From an uncultured Planctomycetales bacterium (GTDB lineage: Bacteria > Omnitrophota > Gorgyraeia > Zapsychrales > GWA2-47-8): a DNA stretch of 45,171 nucleotides. A program made the translations under genes and the position numbers. The notes below the pieces were generated by a model that was not told where the DNA came from, searched no databases, and was given only the letters and a program-made list of their open reading frames with translations. Shown in pieces: positions 2,825-35,010 of the stretch (within the stretch, counting starts at the first letter, position 1; each line of letters starts with the position of its first letter). The DNA lies in NCBI GenBank assembly GCA_964359575.1, contig CAYHTV010000003.1:1-45171 (forward strand), in the 5' to 3' direction.

Positions 2825-4233
2825 GGATTGCCCTCTGTGCCGCTGAGGTTGTACCGTTTGTCAAGACGGGCGGGCTCGCCGATGTCGCGGGAACGCTGCC
2901 GCTGGCCTTGGAAAAGTTGGGCGAAGAAGTGGTTGTTTTTTTGCCCGGATACAAGAATATTGCAGTGGAAAATGGTAAAAAGAAGAAAGTCGGCGATGGT
3001 ATTTCCACAACCACCATCGGCAGAAATATTCCAGTGTATTTCATTGAGAATGACGAGTTGTACCATCGGAATGGCTTATATGGGGATAGCGGCGGTGATT
3101 ACCCTGATAATTTAGAACGTTTTCAATTTTTCTGCTGGAAGATTTTAAAAGTTTTAAAGCAGTTGAAAATTCCTGTGGATATTGTTCATTGCCATGATTG
3201 GCAGACAGGTTTGCTCCCAGCGTATTTGAAGTCTGTATATCATGCGGACCCATTTTTTCAAAGAACCAAGTCCGTGATGACCATTCATAACCTTGCCTAT
3301 CAAGGAGTATTTCCCAAAGCGGGATTTTCTAAATTAGGATTGGATAAAAAATTATTCTCCGCGGAAGGTTTTGAATTTTATGATCAAATAAATTTTTTAA
3401 AGGGTGGAATTATTTTTAGCGACTCTGTGACGACCGTGAGTCCGCAGTATGCCAAGGAAATTAAAATGGTAAAGTTCGGCTGCGGCCTGGAAGGGGTTTT
3501 GCAGCATCATAAAAGCGATGTTGTGGGGATCCTCAATGGATTGGATTATGCGACATGGAACCCAGAGACCGATCCGCTTATTGCCGAGCAATTTTCCGCG
3601 GAACATATCCACAAAAAATATCGCAATAAACAGAAACTGCAAGAGCAGTCCTCTCTGCCGGTCAAAGAAAGCGTTCCGATTTTTTGTTATGTGGGCCGTT
3701 TAGTCCATCAGAAGGGTTTCGATCTTTTGGCCGATGCGATTGAGGAGTTGATGAAAATGGATTTGCAGTTGGTTATTTTAGGCGTAGGCGAAGAAAAATA
3801 TCATACATTGCTTAATAGACTCATTGTTCAGTATCCAAATAAAATAGCCGGCCATTTAGAATTCAGCGAGTCTATGGCGCATCAGGTTTATGCGGGCTCA
3901 GATTTATTTTTGATGCCGTCTTGGTATGAGCCGTGCGGTTTGAGCCAAATGATTAGCCTGCGCTATGGAGCGATTCCGGTCGCGCATAAAACAGGCGGAT
4001 TAGCCGATACGATTGTCCCTTTTGATTTTTCTAAACGGCAGGGAAACGGATTTCTTTTTGAGGACTACCTCGTGGAAGATTTAGTGGCGGCGGTAAAAAA
4101 CGCGGTGAGTGTTTATCACGATAAAGACATTTTTCATCAGCTTATCACCAATGCCATGAAGCTGCGCTTTGCGTGGGATGATTCTGCCAAACAATATCAA
4201 AAGGTTTTTAAGCGATGCTTAGCGTTGGGATAA
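2821..4233 (+). CDS. glgA: Glycogen synthase
   Basis: KTGGLADV ADP-glucose motif, HCHDWQTG, TIHNLAYQG, EPCGLSQ. Confidence 0.96.
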   Translation: MRIALCAAEVVPFVKTGGLADVAGTLPLALEKLGEEVVVFLPGYKNIAVENGKKKKVGDGISTTTIGRNIPVYFIENDELYHRNGLYGDSGGDYPDNLERFQFFCWKILKVLKQLKIPVDIVHCHDWQTGLLPAYLKSVYHADPFFQRTKSVMTIHNLAYQGVFPKAGFSKLGLDKKLFSAEGFEFYDQINFLKGGIIFSDSVTTVSPQYAKEIKMVKFGCGLEGVLQHHKSDVVGILNGLDYATWNPETDPLIAEQFSAEHIHKKYRNKQKLQEQSSLPVKESVPIFCYVGRLVHQKGFDLLADAIEELMKMDLQLVILGVGEEKYHTLLNRLIVQYPNKIAGHLEFSESMAHQVYAGSDLFLMPSWYEPCGLSQMISLRYGAIPVAHKTGGLADTIVPFDFSKRQGNGFLFEDYLVEDLVAAVKNAVSVYHDKDIFHQLITNAMKLRFAWDDSAKQYQKVFKRCLALG

Positions 4234-28741: not shown

Positions 28742-30016
28742 ATGTCATACCAAAGAACTGTGCTTGATAATGGTTTACGTATTGTCACCCATGCGATGAA
28801 AAATCGTGACAGTGCCGCGTTGGGATTTTTGGTCTCAACAGGCGGGCGCTATGAAGAGGATCATCTTAAAGGCGCGGCGCATTTTTTGGAGCATATCCTT
28901 TTTAAAGGAAGCCAAAAGTATTCCTGTGAGGAAATCAAGGAAAGTATTGAGGGCATTGGCGGAACCTTGAATGCCTTTACGGCCGAGGAGGTGACCTGTT
29001 ATTACGCCAAAATTCCGGCTAAACATTTGAGAATGACGTTTGATGTGCTGTCGGATATGGTTTTTCGTCCGATCATTTCTCCTGAAGATGTCCAAAAAGA
29101 AAGTGCCGTGATCATCGAGGAAATCAAAATGTACCATGACTTGCCGCAATACCGGGTTATGGAATTGCTGGATGCCTTGATGTGGCCTGACCATCCGTTA
29201 GGGAAGAATCTGACGGGAACCGAGGCGACCGTAGGCAGTATGACGAGTGAGAATTTACATAAATTTCATAGTGAGTATTACTCCCCGCACAATATTGTGA
29301 TTGCTGCCTGCGGACGATTAGAGCACGAAAAGTTTGTCAGGTTTGTCAAAAAGTATTTAAATAAAATTTCTAAAACACAAAGCCGGAATTTTTTGCCAGC
29401 GGACAATTCGCAGTCCCATCCCCGGGTCCATTTTTTGGAAAAGAATATTGAACAGATGCATCTGGCATTGGGAACATTGGGACTCCCGGAAGGGCACAAA
29501 GACCGATATATTTTCACGCTGTTAAATATTATTATGGGCGGGAACATGTCCAGCCGGTTGTTTAATGAGATCCGTGAGAAACGGGGTTTGGCCTATTCGA
29601 TCGGCAGCGGCATCAAGTCTTATAAAGATAGCGGGATTTTTATGGTGCGCGCGGGGGTGGATAACCAGAAGATCGTCAAGACTTTGGAGGTCGTTTTGCA
29701 GGAGTTTAAGAAGATGAAGGAGGGTGGAATTAATAAAAGTGAATTTACCCGGGCTAAAGACTATGCCATAGGCCAACTGCTATTGAGTATGGAAGAAACC
29801 ATGGATCACATGCTGTGGATTGGGGAAGAAACTGTTTCGCATGATAAGATTCGCACGCTTAAAAATGTAATCAATCAAGTCAATAAGGTGACCATGAAGG
29901 ACATCCAGCGGCTGGCCGATGACATCTTTAACGAGCAGCGTTTTAATTTAGCCCTGGTAGGGCCCATCACCGAAGATCAGAAGAGGGACTTACGCGCGTT
30001 GATGGGGGTACGATAA
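28742..30016 (+). CDS. M16 family zinc peptidase
   Basis: HFLEH (HxxEH), NAFT, SSRLFNEIREKRGLAY. Confidence 0.93.
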   Translation: MSYQRTVLDNGLRIVTHAMKNRDSAALGFLVSTGGRYEEDHLKGAAHFLEHILFKGSQKYSCEEIKESIEGIGGTLNAFTAEEVTCYYAKIPAKHLRMTFDVLSDMVFRPIISPEDVQKESAVIIEEIKMYHDLPQYRVMELLDALMWPDHPLGKNLTGTEATVGSMTSENLHKFHSEYYSPHNIVIAACGRLEHEKFVRFVKKYLNKISKTQSRNFLPADNSQSHPRVHFLEKNIEQMHLALGTLGLPEGHKDRYIFTLLNIIMGGNMSSRLFNEIREKRGLAYSIGSGIKSYKDSGIFMVRAGVDNQKIVKTLEVVLQEFKKMKEGGINKSEFTRAKDYAIGQLLLSMEETMDHMLWIGEETVSHDKIRTLKNVINQVNKVTMKDIQRLADDIFNEQRFNLALVGPITEDQKRDLRALMGVR

Positions 30017-32429
30017 TCCCTATCGTTAAATATAAAATTCCTATCAGCCAGCCCAATGCTACTAGCCCCCAAAAATAATATAAAGCAGTGAGTTTCGTAG
30101 ATTCGAAATGAAAGCGGACAACATTCTCGCCAAAAGTTAAGGGAATGGCCTTATAAGCCAGGTTGGCTTTATAGATAGTCACCGCCTGACCATTGACGGT
30201 TGCGTTCCACTGCGGGTGCCATACGTCACTATAAAAGAGATAGACTTTTTCCTTCCCCGGAACATCGATCCGGATTTCCAAATTATTGGCATCGAATCGG
30301 TCAATATCATTTTTCAGATCAATACGATAATGAGCTGACAAGCCTTCTGGCGAGATGGCCTGAGGGAGACCGAATTTTTTAAAAGGATGTTCATCAGATA
30401 AAAAAAGGATATCTCCCTGGTAGGCAGGATGACGCATGAGCTGCGCGATATCTTCTTCGGAAGAAAGAAAAATGGGATTAGTGAAGAATTGAATTTTGTC
30501 GGTTGAAACCGCCGCCATTTTTCTTGCGGCGGGATGATTTAAAGGAAAGGTCAGGGACTTATACGGTAAAAATCCTTTGGGAATTTCCGAAGGGTTGAGG
30601 GGTTGTTCCCAATACGCCTTCATCAGTTGGTCGAATGGTTTTAACCAATGATCGGTTCGCAGTGTATGTCCAGCGTCATCTTTAAAAAGAAAGGCATAGG
30701 TTGACCAATAGGCGGGAGTCAATTTCAATTTAGACAAGATCCGATCGCGTGAATCATGTAATAGAAATTCGCTTTTTCGCCGCTGATGAAAAGGCATCGA
30801 TTGAAATACCGTAATATCAAGCATCTCCCGAGGAAGTGAAATTGTTTTTGAATTTGCTTCGGTAATTTTATATTGATAGATGTGGACGGTATGAACAATA
30901 AGGAGGATCATGGTCAGACTTGGCAGCAGGCGTGTGTTTTTTTCTGAGGCCATGATGAACAAAAGCAGGGCCAGTATGAACGCAAAAAGCGATGCAAAGA
31001 CAAGCTGGGCAACTAATACACTTTTATCAAGATACGAAGGAAGACTAGGAATATATCTATACAATTTTTGAATATGGTCAGCCCAATAGGTTCCTCCTTC
31101 AACAAGGCTTAGCAGAAGTTTTTCAGCGAACGATGCATCTTGACTGATGGTCAACAGAAAAATTCCCAATCCCAGAAATAGAGAACTTAACACCATAAGG
31201 ATCCTGTTCCATTTTAATAGATGAGTGCTGTTTTCTTTAAGCTGAAGAAGTGCTTCCCACCCAAATCCAGCCCAAAAACAAATAAAAAGTTTGACAATGG
31301 GAGAAATAAGGGCCAGATGCCGAAAGAAATGCATCGCCGGCCATAGATAATAGAAAAAGGTGGCCAGAAAACTCCCTGTGCTGAATAAAAGGAGTGTAAT
31401 GATCATAGCGAAGATGTGGAGATTTCCTCGATGGATATAGAAGATAAGAGCAAACAGGGAGAGGGCCAATGGGAGAAATCCAATAAAAAGGGTGTAATCC
31501 GATGCCGGCGAGACACCGAAAAGCATTTCCACCCATTTTAAGAGAGACATATTACGTCCGTAAGTGAGGAATCCGTTCAAATCGACATGGGCGTCAGCGC
31601 CGCGGCCATAATTGTAATTGGTAATTTCGGCCGTGTTAATTTCCAAAAGCGTGTAGGCGAGATAAAAAAGGGCTGCTATGACCAGGAAGGTCAAAACGGC
31701 TGGCCACGAAAATTTTATAGAGCGTAATTGGGGAAGGACTTCTTGGAAGTTAAAGGCTGCAAAAAAAAGAAAGTACAAAAATATTACTAAAGTCGTCACC
31801 GGAATAAAATATGGCAGATTGCCGAGTGTCTGCAGTGCCAGGAGGGTCCCGGTTAAGGCGAGATAGCGCCACCGGCCGGTTTCTAGGAATCTGTGTGTGC
31901 AGTGAAGCAGCAAGGGAATCAGATAGTAAAAATGAAAATTGTACCACACCTGGATGAACCAGATACAAGATCCGCTTATTGTAACCACAACCAAAAAAAC
32001 AGTGGATAGCGAGTGATAAAATCGTCGAGCTAAAAGCCAGGCACCTACAATGAGGGCAAACTCATCAACAAACATTCCCAGTTGAAAAATATAAACGAAA
32101 TTAATCCCCTTTAGGATCCAGGCCACCCAATGCCCAAAAGCGAGGAGAGCGGTTTGGAGAATACCGGCCGCGATTGCATACCACCATGTGGCAACGGTCC
32201 CATGGGTCATAAAGGGTATCCACTGTGGGACTTCATCAGCGGTAACGGCATTATTGAGAAAAAAATACTGTAAATGAAAATATTGGAAGGTATCAAATCC
32301 TGCCGGAATACGCCGCTGCCAACAAAGCCATATATAAAAAAGGAGCTGAAGAATTAAGAGTAGGCCGAAGAGAAATCCTTCGGATCGGGGGATTTGTGGT
32401 TTATGGGATGAGGGATGTTCTGGGTTCAT
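29967..32429 (-). CDS. YfhO-like polytopic membrane protein (GT-C type)
   Basis: Many TM segments; C-terminal DVWHPQWNATVNG...IYKANLAYKAIPL. Confidence 0.75.
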   Translation of the reverse strand: MNPEHPSSHKPQIPRSEGFLFGLLLILQLLFYIWLCWQRRIPAGFDTFQYFHLQYFFLNNAVTADEVPQWIPFMTHGTVATWWYAIAAGILQTALLAFGHWVAWILKGINFVYIFQLGMFVDEFALIVGAWLLARRFYHSLSTVFLVVVTISGSCIWFIQVWYNFHFYYLIPLLLHCTHRFLETGRWRYLALTGTLLALQTLGNLPYFIPVTTLVIFLYFLFFAAFNFQEVLPQLRSIKFSWPAVLTFLVIAALFYLAYTLLEINTAEITNYNYGRGADAHVDLNGFLTYGRNMSLLKWVEMLFGVSPASDYTLFIGFLPLALSLFALIFYIHRGNLHIFAMIITLLLFSTGSFLATFFYYLWPAMHFFRHLALISPIVKLFICFWAGFGWEALLQLKENSTHLLKWNRILMVLSSLFLGLGIFLLTISQDASFAEKLLLSLVEGGTYWADHIQKLYRYIPSLPSYLDKSVLVAQLVFASLFAFILALLLFIMASEKNTRLLPSLTMILLIVHTVHIYQYKITEANSKTISLPREMLDITVFQSMPFHQRRKSEFLLHDSRDRILSKLKLTPAYWSTYAFLFKDDAGHTLRTDHWLKPFDQLMKAYWEQPLNPSEIPKGFLPYKSLTFPLNHPAARKMAAVSTDKIQFFTNPIFLSSEEDIAQLMRHPAYQGDILFLSDEHPFKKFGLPQAISPEGLSAHYRIDLKNDIDRFDANNLEIRIDVPGKEKVYLFYSDVWHPQWNATVNGQAVTIYKANLAYKAIPLTFGENVVRFHFESTKLTALYYFWGLVALGWLIGILYLTIGIIVPPSTRVSPSSDLR

Positions 32430-32642
32430 GTGGATATTTTATTGTAAATGATTTTAACGGATATGAGGAGATAATTTTAGAAAAGTTTGGGGCGATTTTT
32501 TTTAGATTTTAAAAAAAAAACCCCCCCAAAAAAAATTTTTAAAATTAAAAAAAGTTAATTATTTTTTTTATATTTTTATTTTTTTGGTGTTTTTTTTTTT
32601 AACTTTAAAAAAAACCCCCCCCACCCTAAAATATTTTTTAAA

Positions 32643-32671
32643 TTGACAAGCGTTTAATTATTGGATAGACT
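32643..32671 (+). promoter_or_regulatory. Near-consensus sigma70 promoter
   Basis: TTGACA-17 nt-TAGACT. Confidence 0.7.
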
Positions 32672-32723
32672 GTGACAGATTCTTAAACCCTAACAGCCAA
32701 AGTATCAAAGGAGGATATGTATT

Positions 32724-32897
32724 ATGCCAGAAGAACTCTCTTTCTACGATGTGAAAACCAAGGCAAAGTTTAAGACAGGGGAGTATCAAGTTAGACAAAA
32801 GGCTGGACGTTTTTTTGCGGTAGCTAAATCTAAGGCTGGTACGCATGAATGCTGGAGAGTTTTAAGCAAAGACCAAGCGGCCAAAATGAAGAAATAA
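32724..32897 (+). CDS. 57-aa basic protein resembling archaeal chromatin protein CC1 (not in the ORF track)
   Basis: MPEELSFYDVKTKAKFKTGEYQVRQKAGRFFAVAKSKAGTHECWRVLSKDQAAKMKK; SD aaggagga; promoter upstream. Confidence 0.8.
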   Translation: MPEELSFYDVKTKAKFKTGEYQVRQKAGRFFAVAKSKAGTHECWRVLSKDQAAKMKK

Positions 32898-32933: not shown

Positions 32934-33278
32934 TTGACACCACTGAAGCTTGCCAAATTAATCGCAGAATGCGCCTCAGATAAAAAAGCCGCTGAAATTA
33001 CGGTTCTTGATATGCGTAAGGTGGCTAATTTCTGCGATTATTTTGTTCTCTGTACAGGAAATACCGATCGCCAAGTTCGGGCCGTGGCTTTGGGAATCGA
33101 AGAAAAAATCCACGAGTTGAATCTTCGTTCTGTGAAAAAACAGGGTTTGAGCGATTCGCGCTGGATCGCGATGGATTTTGGTGATGTGGTGGTTCATATT
33201 TTTGAAAAGCTTACGCGCGAATTTTACGGTTTGGATTATCTCTGGCAAGATGCTAAAAAAGTAAACTGGGAGAAATAA
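32934..33278 (+). CDS. rsfS: Ribosome silencing factor
   Basis: DKKAAEITVLD, DYFVLCTG, WIAMDFGDVVVHIF, REFYGLDYLW. Confidence 0.95.
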   Translation: MTPLKLAKLIAECASDKKAAEITVLDMRKVANFCDYFVLCTGNTDRQVRAVALGIEEKIHELNLRSVKKQGLSDSRWIAMDFGDVVVHIFEKLTREFYGLDYLWQDAKKVNWEK

Positions 33279-33339: not shown

Positions 33340-35010
33340 ATGTTAGTCAATCTCCAAGAGCAGTTAAAAGACGTTATTTCCCAATCGCTTCGCGAATCGC
33401 ATAAATCTCTCACCGAATTTCCTCCAATCGTCCTGGAAATTCCCAATGACAAAAAGCACGGGGAATTTTCCTGTAATATTTCTCTGCAGTTAGCCAAACC
33501 GCTTCGCCGGTCCCCCTTAGAGTTAGCCGCCCAACTAGTAGCGGCCATTCAAAAAAATGTTGAAAGCAGTCCCTTAAACGGGCATCTTCAGAAAATTGAT
33601 GTGGTGCGGCCGGGATTCATCAATTTTTATTTAAGCCCTGGGGCGCTTTATGTCACCTTGAGCGAGGTTTTAAAAGAAGGAAAGAATTTCGGTTCATCGG
33701 CGTTTGGCAAGAAGAAAAGAGTTCAAGTGGAATTTGTCAGCGCCAATCCGACGGGACCGTTGAGTGTCGCCCATGCCCGTCAGGCAGCCGTAGGGGATGC
33801 CTTGGTGAATATTTTGAATTTTGTCGGGTTCGCTGCCCAAAAAGAATTTTATGTGAATGATGAGGGAAATCAGATTAATATTTTGGGGCGTTCGGTAGAG
33901 CTGCGCAGCCGCGAAGTTTTAGGTGAAAAAATTGAGTTTCCCGAAGATTGTTATCAGGGCGATTATATCCTCGACATGGCTAGAATTTATATGGAGCAAA
34001 ACAAGGTGGGGAAAATTGCGGATTTGGAAGGTAAGGCCGATCGTATCCGGCAGTTTGCGGTAGATTATTTGCTCAATGTGATTAAAAAGGAATTGGATGA
34101 TTTTGGCGTGCATTTTGATGTGTGGGCGCATCAGTCGAAAATTGCAACCAAAGAGAATATTGAAGCGGTTTTGGATTTTCTAGGTGAAAAGGGATTCCTT
34201 TATGAAAAAGAAGGGGCATTGTGGTTTAGGTCCACGGATTTTGGTGATGACAAGGACCGAGTGGTTGAAAAAAGCGATGGTAACTATACCTACCTCACCC
34301 CTGACATCGTTTATCACCAAAATAAGTTCAAGCGGGGATTTGAAAAGGTTATCAATATTTGGGGGCCGGATCACCACGGGTATATTCCGCGTATTAAAGC
34401 CGTGGTGGAGGCCTTAGGGTATGACCGCGATGATGTGGAGGTCTTGATTGTGCAGCTGGCGACGCTTTATCGTGGCGGCCAGCCGATTTCGATGTCGACG
34501 CGGCGGGGGCAGTATATCAGCTTACGGGAAGTGATGAGTGAGGTGGGGGTGGATGCGGCCCGTTTTTTCTTTCTAATGCGGCGCATCAGTGCGCATCTGG
34601 ATTTTGATCTGGAATTAGCCAAAAAAGAGACACCGGAAAATCCCGTCTATTATATTCAATACGCGCACGCACGCATTTATAGTGTCTGGGATAAGGCCAA
34701 GGAAGTCAATCTGGCAGCGAGGCATACGCATTTTTCTCTCCTTAAAAATGAAGAGGAGCTGGATTTGCTTAAAAAAATCGGTCAGTTTCCGGGAGTTTTG
34801 ATTTTATGCGCCGAGCAGCTCGACCCTTACGCGTTGGTGAATTATCTGCACGAATTGGCCACGATGTTTCACCGATTTTACGATAAGCACCGCGTGATTG
34901 ACCAAAATCCTGATCTTGCCGCAGAGCGGTTGGCTCTTTTGGACGCGGCGCGCATTGTTTTGGCTAATGGCTTAAAATTGTTGGGTGTCGGCGCGCCGAA
35001 GAAAATGTAG
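33340..35010 (+). CDS. argS: Arginine--tRNA ligase
   Basis: EFVSANPTGPL, WGPDHHGY, MSTRRG, YYIQYAHARI, APKKM. Confidence 0.97.
   Translation: MLVNLQEQLKDVISQSLRESHKSLTEFPPIVLEIPNDKKHGEFSCNISLQLAKPLRRSPLELAAQLVAAIQKNVESSPLNGHLQKIDVVRPGFINFYLSPGALYVTLSEVLKEGKNFGSSAFGKKKRVQVEFVSANPTGPLSVAHARQAAVGDALVNILNFVGFAAQKEFYVNDEGNQINILGRSVELRSREVLGEKIEFPEDCYQGDYILDMARIYMEQNKVGKIADLEGKADRIRQFAVDYLLNVIKKELDDFGVHFDVWAHQSKIATKENIEAVLDFLGEKGFLYEKEGALWFRSTDFGDDKDRVVEKSDGNYTYLTPDIVYHQNKFKRGFEKVINIWGPDHHGYIPRIKAVVEALGYDRDDVEVLIVQLATLYRGGQPISMSTRRGQYISLREVMSEVGVDAARFFFLMRRISAHLDFDLELAKKETPENPVYYIQYAHARIYSVWDKAKEVNLAARHTHFSLLKNEEELDLLKKIGQFPGVLILCAEQLDPYALVNYLHELATMFHRFYDKHRVIDQNPDLAAERLALLDAARIVLANGLKLLGVGAPKKM

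What the first reader, a model, noticed from the sequence alone, without database searches (positions are those of the whole stretch)
32724..32897. Unannotated 57-aa gene resembling archaeal chromatin protein CC1, with strong expression signals
Seen: an ORF below the track cut-off, MPEELSFYDVKTKAKFKTGEYQVRQKAGRFFAVAKSKAGTHECWRVLSKDQAAKMKK. It is Lys-rich, has SD aaggagga and a TTGACA-17-TAGACT promoter, and heads rsfS-argS. From memory, the pattern L-x-FYD-x-K-x-K-x-x-F-x-T-x-x-Y-x-V...FAVAKS...W/Y-R-x-L matches Thermoproteales CC1, a small beta-sheet ss/dsDNA-binding protein of the Cren7/CC1-like group. Inference: an abundant archaeal-type nucleoid protein in a bacterium.
Basis: partly seen in the sequence, partly recalled or inferred. 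Interest (0 to 1): 0.8.

Follow-up and report, generated by a model that had tools for sequence, protein, structure and literature searches.

The report
Bacterial homologue of archaeal CC1 protein
A small, basic, strongly conserved 57-residue protein in an Omnitrophota bacterium is a true relative of CC1, a DNA-binding chromatin protein so far described only in a few heat-loving archaea, and the family turns out to be spread over many bacteria and archaea.

Summary
The ORF at 32724..32897 (+) is real: 57 aa, pI 9.9, 555 homologues, and mostly third-position/synonymous differences among orthologues. Its TTGACA-17-TAGACT promoter and AAGGAGGA Shine-Dalgarno site are present, and they are conserved in 23 of 24 distinct loci (promoter) and all 24 (SD).

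A profile without Thermoproteales sequences hits the 55-57-aa proteins that NCBI names "DNA-binding protein CC1" in Pyrobaculum and Thermoproteus at 53-62 bits. hhalign gives 97.6% probability (E 3.9e-12). A CC1-only profile finds only this ORF in the 1.97-Mb genome. AlphaFold predicts the same five strands in both.

"Archaeal-type" is too narrow. The family also occurs in Bacteroidota, Alphaproteobacteria, Chloroflexota, DPANN and Thermoplasmatota, with up to 85% identity across domains. Thermoproteales CC1 is its divergent branch.

In Omnitrophota the gene is confined to one order plus a few families. It always precedes rsfS-argS and coexists with HU.

DNA binding and abundance are inferred, not shown. 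The Cren7/Sul7d grouping is only a weak fold resemblance. No Pfam or NCBIfam model and no solved structure covers the family.

The parts
32643..32671 (+). sigma-70-type promoter: -35 TTGACA (32643-32648), 17-nt spacer, -10 TAGACT (32666-32671)
   Evidence: Scan gives 10 of 12 matches. The same TTGACA-17-TAnAnT arrangement lies 34-70 nt upstream of the start in 23 of 24 distinct orthologous loci.
32708..32715 (+). Shine-Dalgarno AAGGAGGA, 8 nt before the ATG
   Evidence: Sequence. A GGAGG-type site is present in all 25 rows examined.
32724..32897 (+). CC1-family gene, 57 aa, pI 9.9. Predicted five beta-strands (residues 5-9, 14-18, 22-26, 29-35, 42-47) plus a C-terminal helix (49-56).
   Evidence: ORF. 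Homologues. Homology to CC1. Model pLDDT 83.5. Purifying selection.
32934..33278 (+). rsfS (ribosomal silencing factor), the next gene, 36 nt downstream
   Evidence: Pfam RsfS, E 1.7e-30. It follows the CC1-like gene on the same strand in 19 of 19 Omnitrophota loci, and in 35 of 38 named Omnitrophota-type loci.
33340..35010 (+). argS (arginyl-tRNA synthetase), third gene of the conserved cluster
   Evidence: Pfam DALR_1, tRNA-synt_1d and Arg_tRNA_synt_N. Synteny.

Best explanation
The ORF encodes a bacterial member of the CC1 family. This is a ~6-kDa, basic, all-beta protein family whose only characterised member, Thermoproteus tenax CC1, is an abundant monomer that binds single- and double-stranded DNA without sequence specificity.

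The Omnitrophota protein keeps the five-strand core and the conserved aromatic and basic positions: F7, Y8, D9, K11, K13, F16, Y21, F31-A32-V33, W44, R45. It lacks the 4-residue insertion of the Thermoproteales proteins and adds a short C-terminal helix.

It is transcribed from its own conserved near-consensus sigma-70 promoter with a strong ribosome-binding site, as the first gene of a conserved CC1-like, rsfS, argS cluster.

Most likely it acts as a small, highly expressed, sequence-unspecific nucleic-acid-binding protein alongside HU, coating or bending DNA and possibly single strands or RNA.

Shown: the gene is real and under purifying selection; it is homologous to CC1; the predicted strand pattern is shared; the expression signals and synteny are conserved; HU coexists.

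Inferred: nucleic-acid binding, abundance, and a role at the nucleoid.
For: Homology:
- A1 profile hits named CC1 proteins at 53-62 bits.
- hhalign 97.6% probability, E 3.9e-12, 50 columns.
- BLASTP 39% identity over 51 residues, E 4e-10.
- The CC1-only profile A3 gives one match in the 1.97-Mb genome, this ORF, at E 1.4e-6.

Fold: AF2 models have the same strand order, window pLDDT 83.5 and Thermoproteus CC1 pLDDT 93.2. The rank-1 Foldseek hit for both is a Sac7d-derived binder, though neither is significant.

Size and charge: 57 aa, pI 9.9, against CC1 at 56 aa, pI 10 (Table 1 of PMC7613761, passage seen).

CC1 properties: abundant, monomeric, beta-rich, binds ss and dsDNA (review PMC4200833, passage seen).

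Constraint: 68-84% identity among 19 orthologues, while RsfS next door is 42-61% and ArgS 46-59%. Synonymous differences exceed non-synonymous ones.

Expression signals are conserved.

The gene stands alone with varied neighbours in other phyla, as is usual for architectural proteins.
Against: - No binding, abundance or localisation data exist for any non-Thermoproteales member.
- HU is present in G000 and in all 29 of 29 genomes of the CC1-like-positive order, so a nucleoid role is not required.
- The Omnitrophota branch differs from CC1 (39-43% identity, no insertion, extra helix, an HECW motif where CC1 has G-I-K-V-[YW]), so function may have shifted.
- The conserved link to rsfS/argS could point to translation rather than chromatin.
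- CC1's own cellular function is called unresolved in the review.
- The CC1 primary paper (PMC1797387) is not held, so its data come second-hand.
Confidence: 0.7

Rival explanations
1. It is a CC1-family protein whose main ligand is RNA or the ribosome, acting as an RNA chaperone or a translation/hibernation-linked factor rather than on the chromosome.
For: The gene sits directly upstream of rsfS (ribosomal silencing factor) and argS on the same strand in 19 of 19 and 35 of 38 Omnitrophota-type loci. No terminator-like site was found between it and rsfS. CC1 binds single strands cooperatively. HU is already present. An archaeal copy (L060) lies beside aIF2-beta, and Pyrobaculum and Nanoarchaeia copies lie near eRF1.
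Against: None of the 64 family loci outside the Omnitrophota-type group shows an rsfS or argS match nearby. Neighbours elsewhere are unrelated: GH10, TRAP transporter, MCM/RPA/TBP. No chain of any solved ribosome or other structure matches the family.
Confidence: 0.2
2. The domain is a general ligand- or protein-binding module, and the free-standing protein is an adaptor or sensor rather than a nucleic-acid coat.
For: The domain occurs at the C-terminus of larger proteins. One carries TIR_2 (P0161, E 1.4e-25). Several have transmembrane or coiled-coil N-termini.
Against: Most family members are free-standing, 50-65 aa and basic with pI 9-10. The one characterised member binds DNA. Lys-rich linkers precede the domain in the fusions, which fits tethered nucleic-acid binding.
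Confidence: 0.07
3. The ORF is a chance open frame, or the resemblance to CC1 is a compositional artefact of short Lys-rich sequences.
For: The protein is short. There are no Pfam, NCBIfam or PDB sequence hits.
Against: 555 homologues. The codon-position pattern shows selection on this frame. Reciprocal profile hits cover the full length. hhalign gives 97.6%. In viral contigs, 27 of 28 motif matches gave no family hit and the one weak hit (E 0.029, 11.5 bits) is not significant, against 102 of 117 family hits in genomes.
Confidence: 0.01

Closest known systems
CC1 (crenarchaeal chromatin protein 1; NCBI 'DNA-binding protein CC1', older name PaREP4) of Thermoproteus and Pyrobaculum
   Same: Homologous over the whole core. 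Same size (55-57 aa) and pI of about 10. Same predicted five-strand order. Free-standing gene.
   Different: - 39-43% identity only.
- The Thermoproteales proteins carry a 4-residue insertion before strand 4 and end right after strand 5. The window protein has no insertion, an HECW motif before the conserved W/Y-R, and a C-terminal helix.
- One copy per Omnitrophota genome against typically 3 strong copies plus one weak copy in Thermoproteales.
- Bacterial host, HU present, and a sigma-70 promoter.
Sul7d/Sac7d and Cren7 (small beta-sheet chromatin proteins of Crenarchaeota)
   Same: Small, basic, five beta-strands. Sul7d also has a C-terminal helix (recalled). Sac7d-derived binders are the rank-1 Foldseek hit for both models. 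Reviews liken CC1 to them in beta-rich organisation.
   Different: No sequence similarity: no Pfam match at E <= 10. The Foldseek matches are not significant (E 0.33 and 1.0, TM 0.46-0.47). The same fold is not established.
DUF5679 (PF18930), a ~40-residue four-cysteine zinc ribbon
   Same: Similar length. The hhalign alignment falls in a plausible register, Y-C-V-K against Y-D-V-K, G-R, and [FY]-R against W-R. An ESM Atlas feature neighbour at rank 6, score 0.90, has 40% of members carrying DUF5679. There is a precedent of Cren7 arising from a zinc ribbon (PMC5906684, passages seen).
   Different: The four cysteines are absent. hhalign is not significant: 0.2% probability with A1, and 28% over 18 columns with A3. 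None of 26 family members hits PF18930. This is a lead only.
HU (PF00216), the general bacterial nucleoid protein
   Same: Small, basic and free-standing. Presumed sequence-unspecific DNA binder.
   Different: Unrelated fold and sequence. Present alongside the CC1-like gene in G000 and in 295 of 301 Omnitrophota genomes.

Membership tests
CC1 family | Significant sequence or profile similarity to Thermoproteus/Pyrobaculum CC1 | tested here: met
   53-62 bits with profile A1. The targets are named CC1 by NCBI. hhalign 97.6%, E 3.9e-12. Reciprocal hit E 1.4e-6. The T. tenax entry G4RKF6 itself could not be fetched.
CC1 family | About 6 kDa and strongly basic | tested here: met
   57 aa, pI 9.94, against 56 aa, pI 10 for T. 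tenax CC1.
CC1 family | Beta-sheet-rich fold | tested here: met
   Prediction only. Five strands in the same order in both AF2 models. No solved CC1 structure is in the PDB copy.
CC1 family | Binds ssDNA and dsDNA without sequence specificity; monomeric | not testable with these tools
   Needs EMSA and gel filtration or AUC.
CC1 family | High cellular abundance | not testable with these tools
   Only indirect evidence: the conserved near-consensus promoter and SD.
CC1 family | Restriction to a few Crenarchaeota, as stated in the literature | tested here: not met
   The host is an Omnitrophota bacterium. The family was found in at least 5 bacterial and 4 archaeal groups. This revises the family's range and is not grounds for exclusion.
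Cren7 / Sul7d (SH3-like chromatin proteins) | Match to Pfam Cren7 or 7kD_DNA_binding, or a significant structural match | tested here: not met
   No Pfam match at E <= 10. Best Foldseek E 0.33 and 1.0, TM < 0.5. The more sensitive aligners were unavailable, so fold identity stays open.
DUF5679 zinc ribbon | Two CxxC knuckles and a match to PF18930 | tested here: not met
   Only one Cys in the protein. PF18930 gives no match over its cut-off in G000. hhalign is not significant.

The most novel reading that the evidence does not exclude
CC1 is not a crenarchaeal oddity. It is the thermophilic offshoot of a pan-domain, horizontally mobile family of ~57-residue nucleic-acid-coating proteins.

The mesophilic branch is up to 85% identical between Omnitrophota bacteria and DPANN archaea on contigs that carry MCM, TBP and RPA. 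On this reading it is a highly expressed second chromatin protein exchanged among lineages of very small or host-associated cells.

The family may descend from a DUF5679-type zinc ribbon by loss of the cysteines, in parallel with Cren7.
Probability: 0.25. Interest if true: 0.8.

Novelty: new member of a known kind. Interest (0 to 1): 0.6.

Why it matters
CC1 is listed in reviews as a lineage-specific chromatin protein of a few Crenarchaeota (passages seen). It has no Pfam or NCBIfam model and no solved structure.

This work shows it belongs to a large family present in Omnitrophota, Bacteroidota, Alphaproteobacteria, Chloroflexota, DPANN and Thermoplasmatota. That changes the picture of its origin. 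It adds a candidate non-HU, non-histone chromatin or nucleic-acid-binding protein to bacteria.

It also offers tractable entry points. One is a cultured carrier, Confluentibacter lentus. Another is a set of mesophilic proteins that are easy to express.

The very high cross-domain identity is an unusually clear case of either inter-domain transfer or extreme constraint on a 57-residue protein.

Four searches of the held library found no paper reporting bacterial or DPANN CC1 homologues. Subscription papers and supplements, such as the species table of PMC7613761, could not be seen.

Tried and rejected
**Searches that gave nothing usable**
- Pfam, NCBIfam and PHROGs scans of the window protein. 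Pfam and NCBIfam returned no family; PHROGs returned only phrog_2385 at E 0.17.
- PDB sequence and profile searches. The only hits were chance-level, at E 0.4 and 0.51.
- Pfam scan of all 26 members of A1. Only FF (E 0.04) and DUF5528 (E 0.56), one member each.
- Two cluster-member runs meant to get taxonomy for distant hits gave almost no names.

**Tests that came out negative**
- HU-replacement idea: rejected, because HU is present.
- DUF5679 origin: tested by hhalign and not significant.
- Mis-binning as the cause of the cross-domain hits: rejected for L060, L081 and L140, whose flanking genes are archaeal (aIF2-beta, eRF1, MCM, TBP, RPA). Labels also cluster on the tree, with 16 changes against 55.3 in shuffles.
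- Viral origin: 27 of 28 motif matches in viral contigs gave no family hit. One (L030) scored E 0.029, 11.5 bits, which is not significant.

**Expression:** no RNA holder was listed by the look-up of sequencing runs.

**Limits on the tree:** it has 57 columns and used the quick method. Two of the 103 rows, both shorter than 48 aa (L114 and L117, cut by locus ends), were dropped. Deep branches are unresolved, so no direction of transfer is claimed.

**Limits on the genome scan:** It also requires the FYD-x-K-x-K motif. Its taxon counts are therefore a biased sample, not a census.

Full report
**Observation.** It has 14 Lys+Arg against 6 Asp+Glu, and its pI is 9.94. AAGGAGGA lies at 32708-32715, 8 nt before the ATG. 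TTGACA (32643-32648), a 17-nt spacer and TAGACT (32666-32671) are reported by the consensus scan, scoring 10 of 12. The genes that follow on the same strand are rsfS (Pfam RsfS, E 1.7e-30), argS and recJ. Upstream, on the other strand, lies an 820-aa membrane protein without any Pfam family.

**The gene is real.**
- The word-indexed search found 555 proteins at E <= 0.01. The best 120 are 55-74 aa and 74-100% identical, and where named they are 'hypothetical protein' of Candidatus Omnitrophota.
- The exhaustive search of 50%-identity representatives gave 77 clusters at E <= 0.001.
- Among 20 orthologous 39-codon cores (the window plus L002-L020), differences fall 1457/982/4184 on codon positions 1/2/3. 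Differing codon pairs are 2945 synonymous against 1715 non-synonymous.
- In the same 19 loci the small protein is 68-84% identical to the window's. RsfS is 42-61% identical and ArgS 46-59%.

**Expression signals are conserved.** I examined 25 rows: the window, L002-L020, L053, L116, L125, L128 and L143. L053 and L008 are the same record. A perfect TTGACA with a 17-nt spacer and a TAnAnT-type -10 hexamer (TAGACT, TAAACT, TACACT, TAATAT or TAGAAT) lies 34-70 nt before the start in 24 rows; only L009 failed my pattern. A GGAGG-type Shine-Dalgarno site is present in all 25.

**Is it CC1?**
- No curated model exists. Pfam and NCBIfam find nothing for the window protein or for CC1 itself. Hocher et al. 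state that no HMM existed for Cc1, and give T. tenax CC1 as 56 aa with pI 10 (PMC7613761, passages seen).
- I built alignment A1 from 26 sequences, none from Thermoproteales.
- An hmmsearch of A1 against all six-frame ORFs of those loci found family members in 102 of the 117.
- These include all 11 loci from Thermoproteus, Pyrobaculum or 'Thermoproteales'. The ten full-length ones score 52.7-58.9 bits. The eleventh, L114, is cut by the locus end and scores 41.0 bits.
- Motif-independent six-frame profile searches confirmed this. Pyrobaculum oguniense TE7 has 3 matches and Thermoproteus sp. CP80 has 3 strong matches plus 1 weak. In that order, 28 of 61 genomes have matches, typically 3 strong and 1 weak, with the best at 53-62 bits.
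- A search with the P. oguniense protein (P0203) returned 107 proteins. NCBI names several of them 'DNA-binding protein CC1' (P. aerophilum, P. neutrophilum, Thermoproteus sp.) or PaREP4.
- BLASTP of the window protein against P0203 gives 39% identity over 51 residues, E 4e-10.
- hhalign of an Omnitrophota-only alignment (A4) against a CC1-only alignment (A3) gives 97.6% probability, E 3.9e-12, over 50 columns.
- In the reverse direction, the CC1-only profile has a single match in the 1.97-Mb genome, and it is this ORF (E 1.4e-6, model positions 1-53 of 55).
- The T. tenax entry itself was not fetched, and the primary CC1 paper is not held.

**Fold.** AlphaFold2 predicts strands at residues 5-9, 14-18, 22-26, 29-35 and 42-47 plus a helix at 49-56 for the window protein (pLDDT 83.5). 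For a 56-aa Thermoproteus CC1 it predicts strands at 6-10, 15-19, 23-29, 32-40 and 47-54 and no helix (pLDDT 93.2). Foldseek against the PDB gives no match at E <= 0.001 for either model. The rank-1 hit in both cases is a Sac7d-derived binder (E 0.33, TM 0.46 and E 1.0, TM 0.47). This agrees with the review's remark that CC1 resembles Sul7 and Cren7 in beta-rich organisation without sequence similarity. It does not establish a common fold. The more sensitive aligners were not available.

**Range of the family.** The 102 family loci carry these labels:
- Omnitrophota: 25.
- 'Uncultured Planctomycetales': 11. These share the Omnitrophota synteny, so they are probably Omnitrophota.
- Unclassified bacteria: 2.
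- Bacteroidota lineages: 19, including the isolate Confluentibacter lentus.
- Alphaproteobacteria: 4.
- Chloroflexota: 3.
- DPANN and unclassified archaea: 20.
- Thermoplasmatota or 'Methanosarcinales'-labelled: 7.
- Thermoproteales: 11.

Flanking genes confirm that at least L060 (aIF2-beta, DUF424), L081 (eRF1) and L140 (MCM, TBP, RPA, KH) are archaeal contigs, and that L086, L155 and L120 are bacterial. Identity across domains reaches 85% (L140 against L053) and 81% (L081 against L054), while the window protein is 38-47% identical to Thermoproteales CC1.

On a quick tree of 101 rows and 57 columns, the Thermoproteales proteins form one starred clade on a long branch (0.61). The bacterial and DPANN/Thermoplasmatota proteins are interleaved on short branches. 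Labels are far more clustered than in shuffles, with 16 changes against 55.3. Deep forks are open, so no donor is inferred.

Within Omnitrophota, 38 of 301 genomes have the gene. These are G000, all 29 of 29 sampled genomes of its order, and 8 genomes of five other families of the class. None was found in the other classes sampled. Each positive genome has one copy.

**Context.** The CC1-like gene is followed by rsfS and argS on the same strand in 19 of 19 loci and in 35 of 38 named Omnitrophota-type loci. The other 3 have the gene at a locus end. No rsfS or argS match lies nearby in any of the other 64 family loci, and neighbours elsewhere vary. HU (PF00216) is present in 295 of 301 Omnitrophota genomes, including G000 and all families that carry the CC1-like gene. 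The protein is therefore an addition to HU, not a replacement.

**Other architectures.** The domain also occurs at the C-terminus of longer proteins. One has a TIR_2 domain (P0161). Several have transmembrane or coiled-coil N-termini and Lys-rich linkers.

**Origin.** An ESM Atlas neighbour (rank 6, score 0.90, 40% of members with DUF5679) suggested a Cys-less zinc-ribbon origin, like that proposed for Cren7 (PMC5906684). The register of the hhalign alignment is suggestive too. But hhalign against DUF5679 sequences taken from 10 loci is not significant: 0.2% probability, and 28% over 18 columns. This remains a lead.

**Verdict.** The functional reading is inferred from one characterised, distant relative together with the conserved expression signals, strong purifying selection, charge and fold. 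That reading is a small, strongly expressed, sequence-unspecific nucleic-acid-binding protein acting beside HU. A translation- or RNA-linked role is the main rival, because of the rsfS-argS linkage. The protein is a new bacterial member of a known family. The wider result is the more interesting part: CC1 is the divergent tip of a family that spans both domains, with near-identical bacterial and archaeal copies. Four searches of the held literature turned up no report of it.

Noticed in passing
window 32486-32635: The divergent intergenic region upstream of the promoter holds two ~55-nt copies, 95 nt apart and 71% identical, of a homopolymer-rich block (runs of T8, A10, C7, A8, T5). Each has G/T-rich and A/C-rich arms that can pair. 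The closest relative, L128, has no such block upstream. It could be an assembly artefact, a slippage-prone tract or a structured element.
   Followed up: partly
window 29967-32429 (-): An 820-aa, multi-pass membrane protein with no Pfam family at E <= 0.001.
   Followed up: no
P0161 (260 aa, metagenomic): An N-terminal TIR_2 domain (E 1.4e-25) is fused to a C-terminal CC1-like domain. This may be a nucleic-acid-sensing defence protein.
   Followed up: partly
P0152, P0154, P0170, P0178, P0192, P0193, P0172, P0190, P0196; L104:968-1495: The CC1-like domain sits at the C-terminus of proteins with coiled-coil or transmembrane N-termini and Lys-rich linkers. One of these is on a locus labelled Woesearchaeota.
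   Followed up: no
L140 (archaeal contig, gene near 3115-3270) against L053 (Omnitrophota): The proteins are 85% identical over 53 residues across the two domains. The L140 copy lies between a KH-domain gene and RPA, MCM and TBP genes.
   Followed up: partly
G301, G302 and 26 further genomes of that order: Thermoproteales genomes carry about 3 strong CC1 copies, two of which in P. oguniense have identical scores, plus a fourth, weak, divergent paralogue (21-37 bits) in a longer open frame of 72-100 aa.
   Followed up: no
L059, L065, L082, L105, L130, L132, L135, L141, L142, L143, L166: Eleven genome records labelled 'uncultured Planctomycetales' carry the Omnitrophota-type CC1-like, rsfS, argS cluster and nest among Omnitrophota sequences on the tree. 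Their taxonomic label is probably wrong or outdated.
   Followed up: partly
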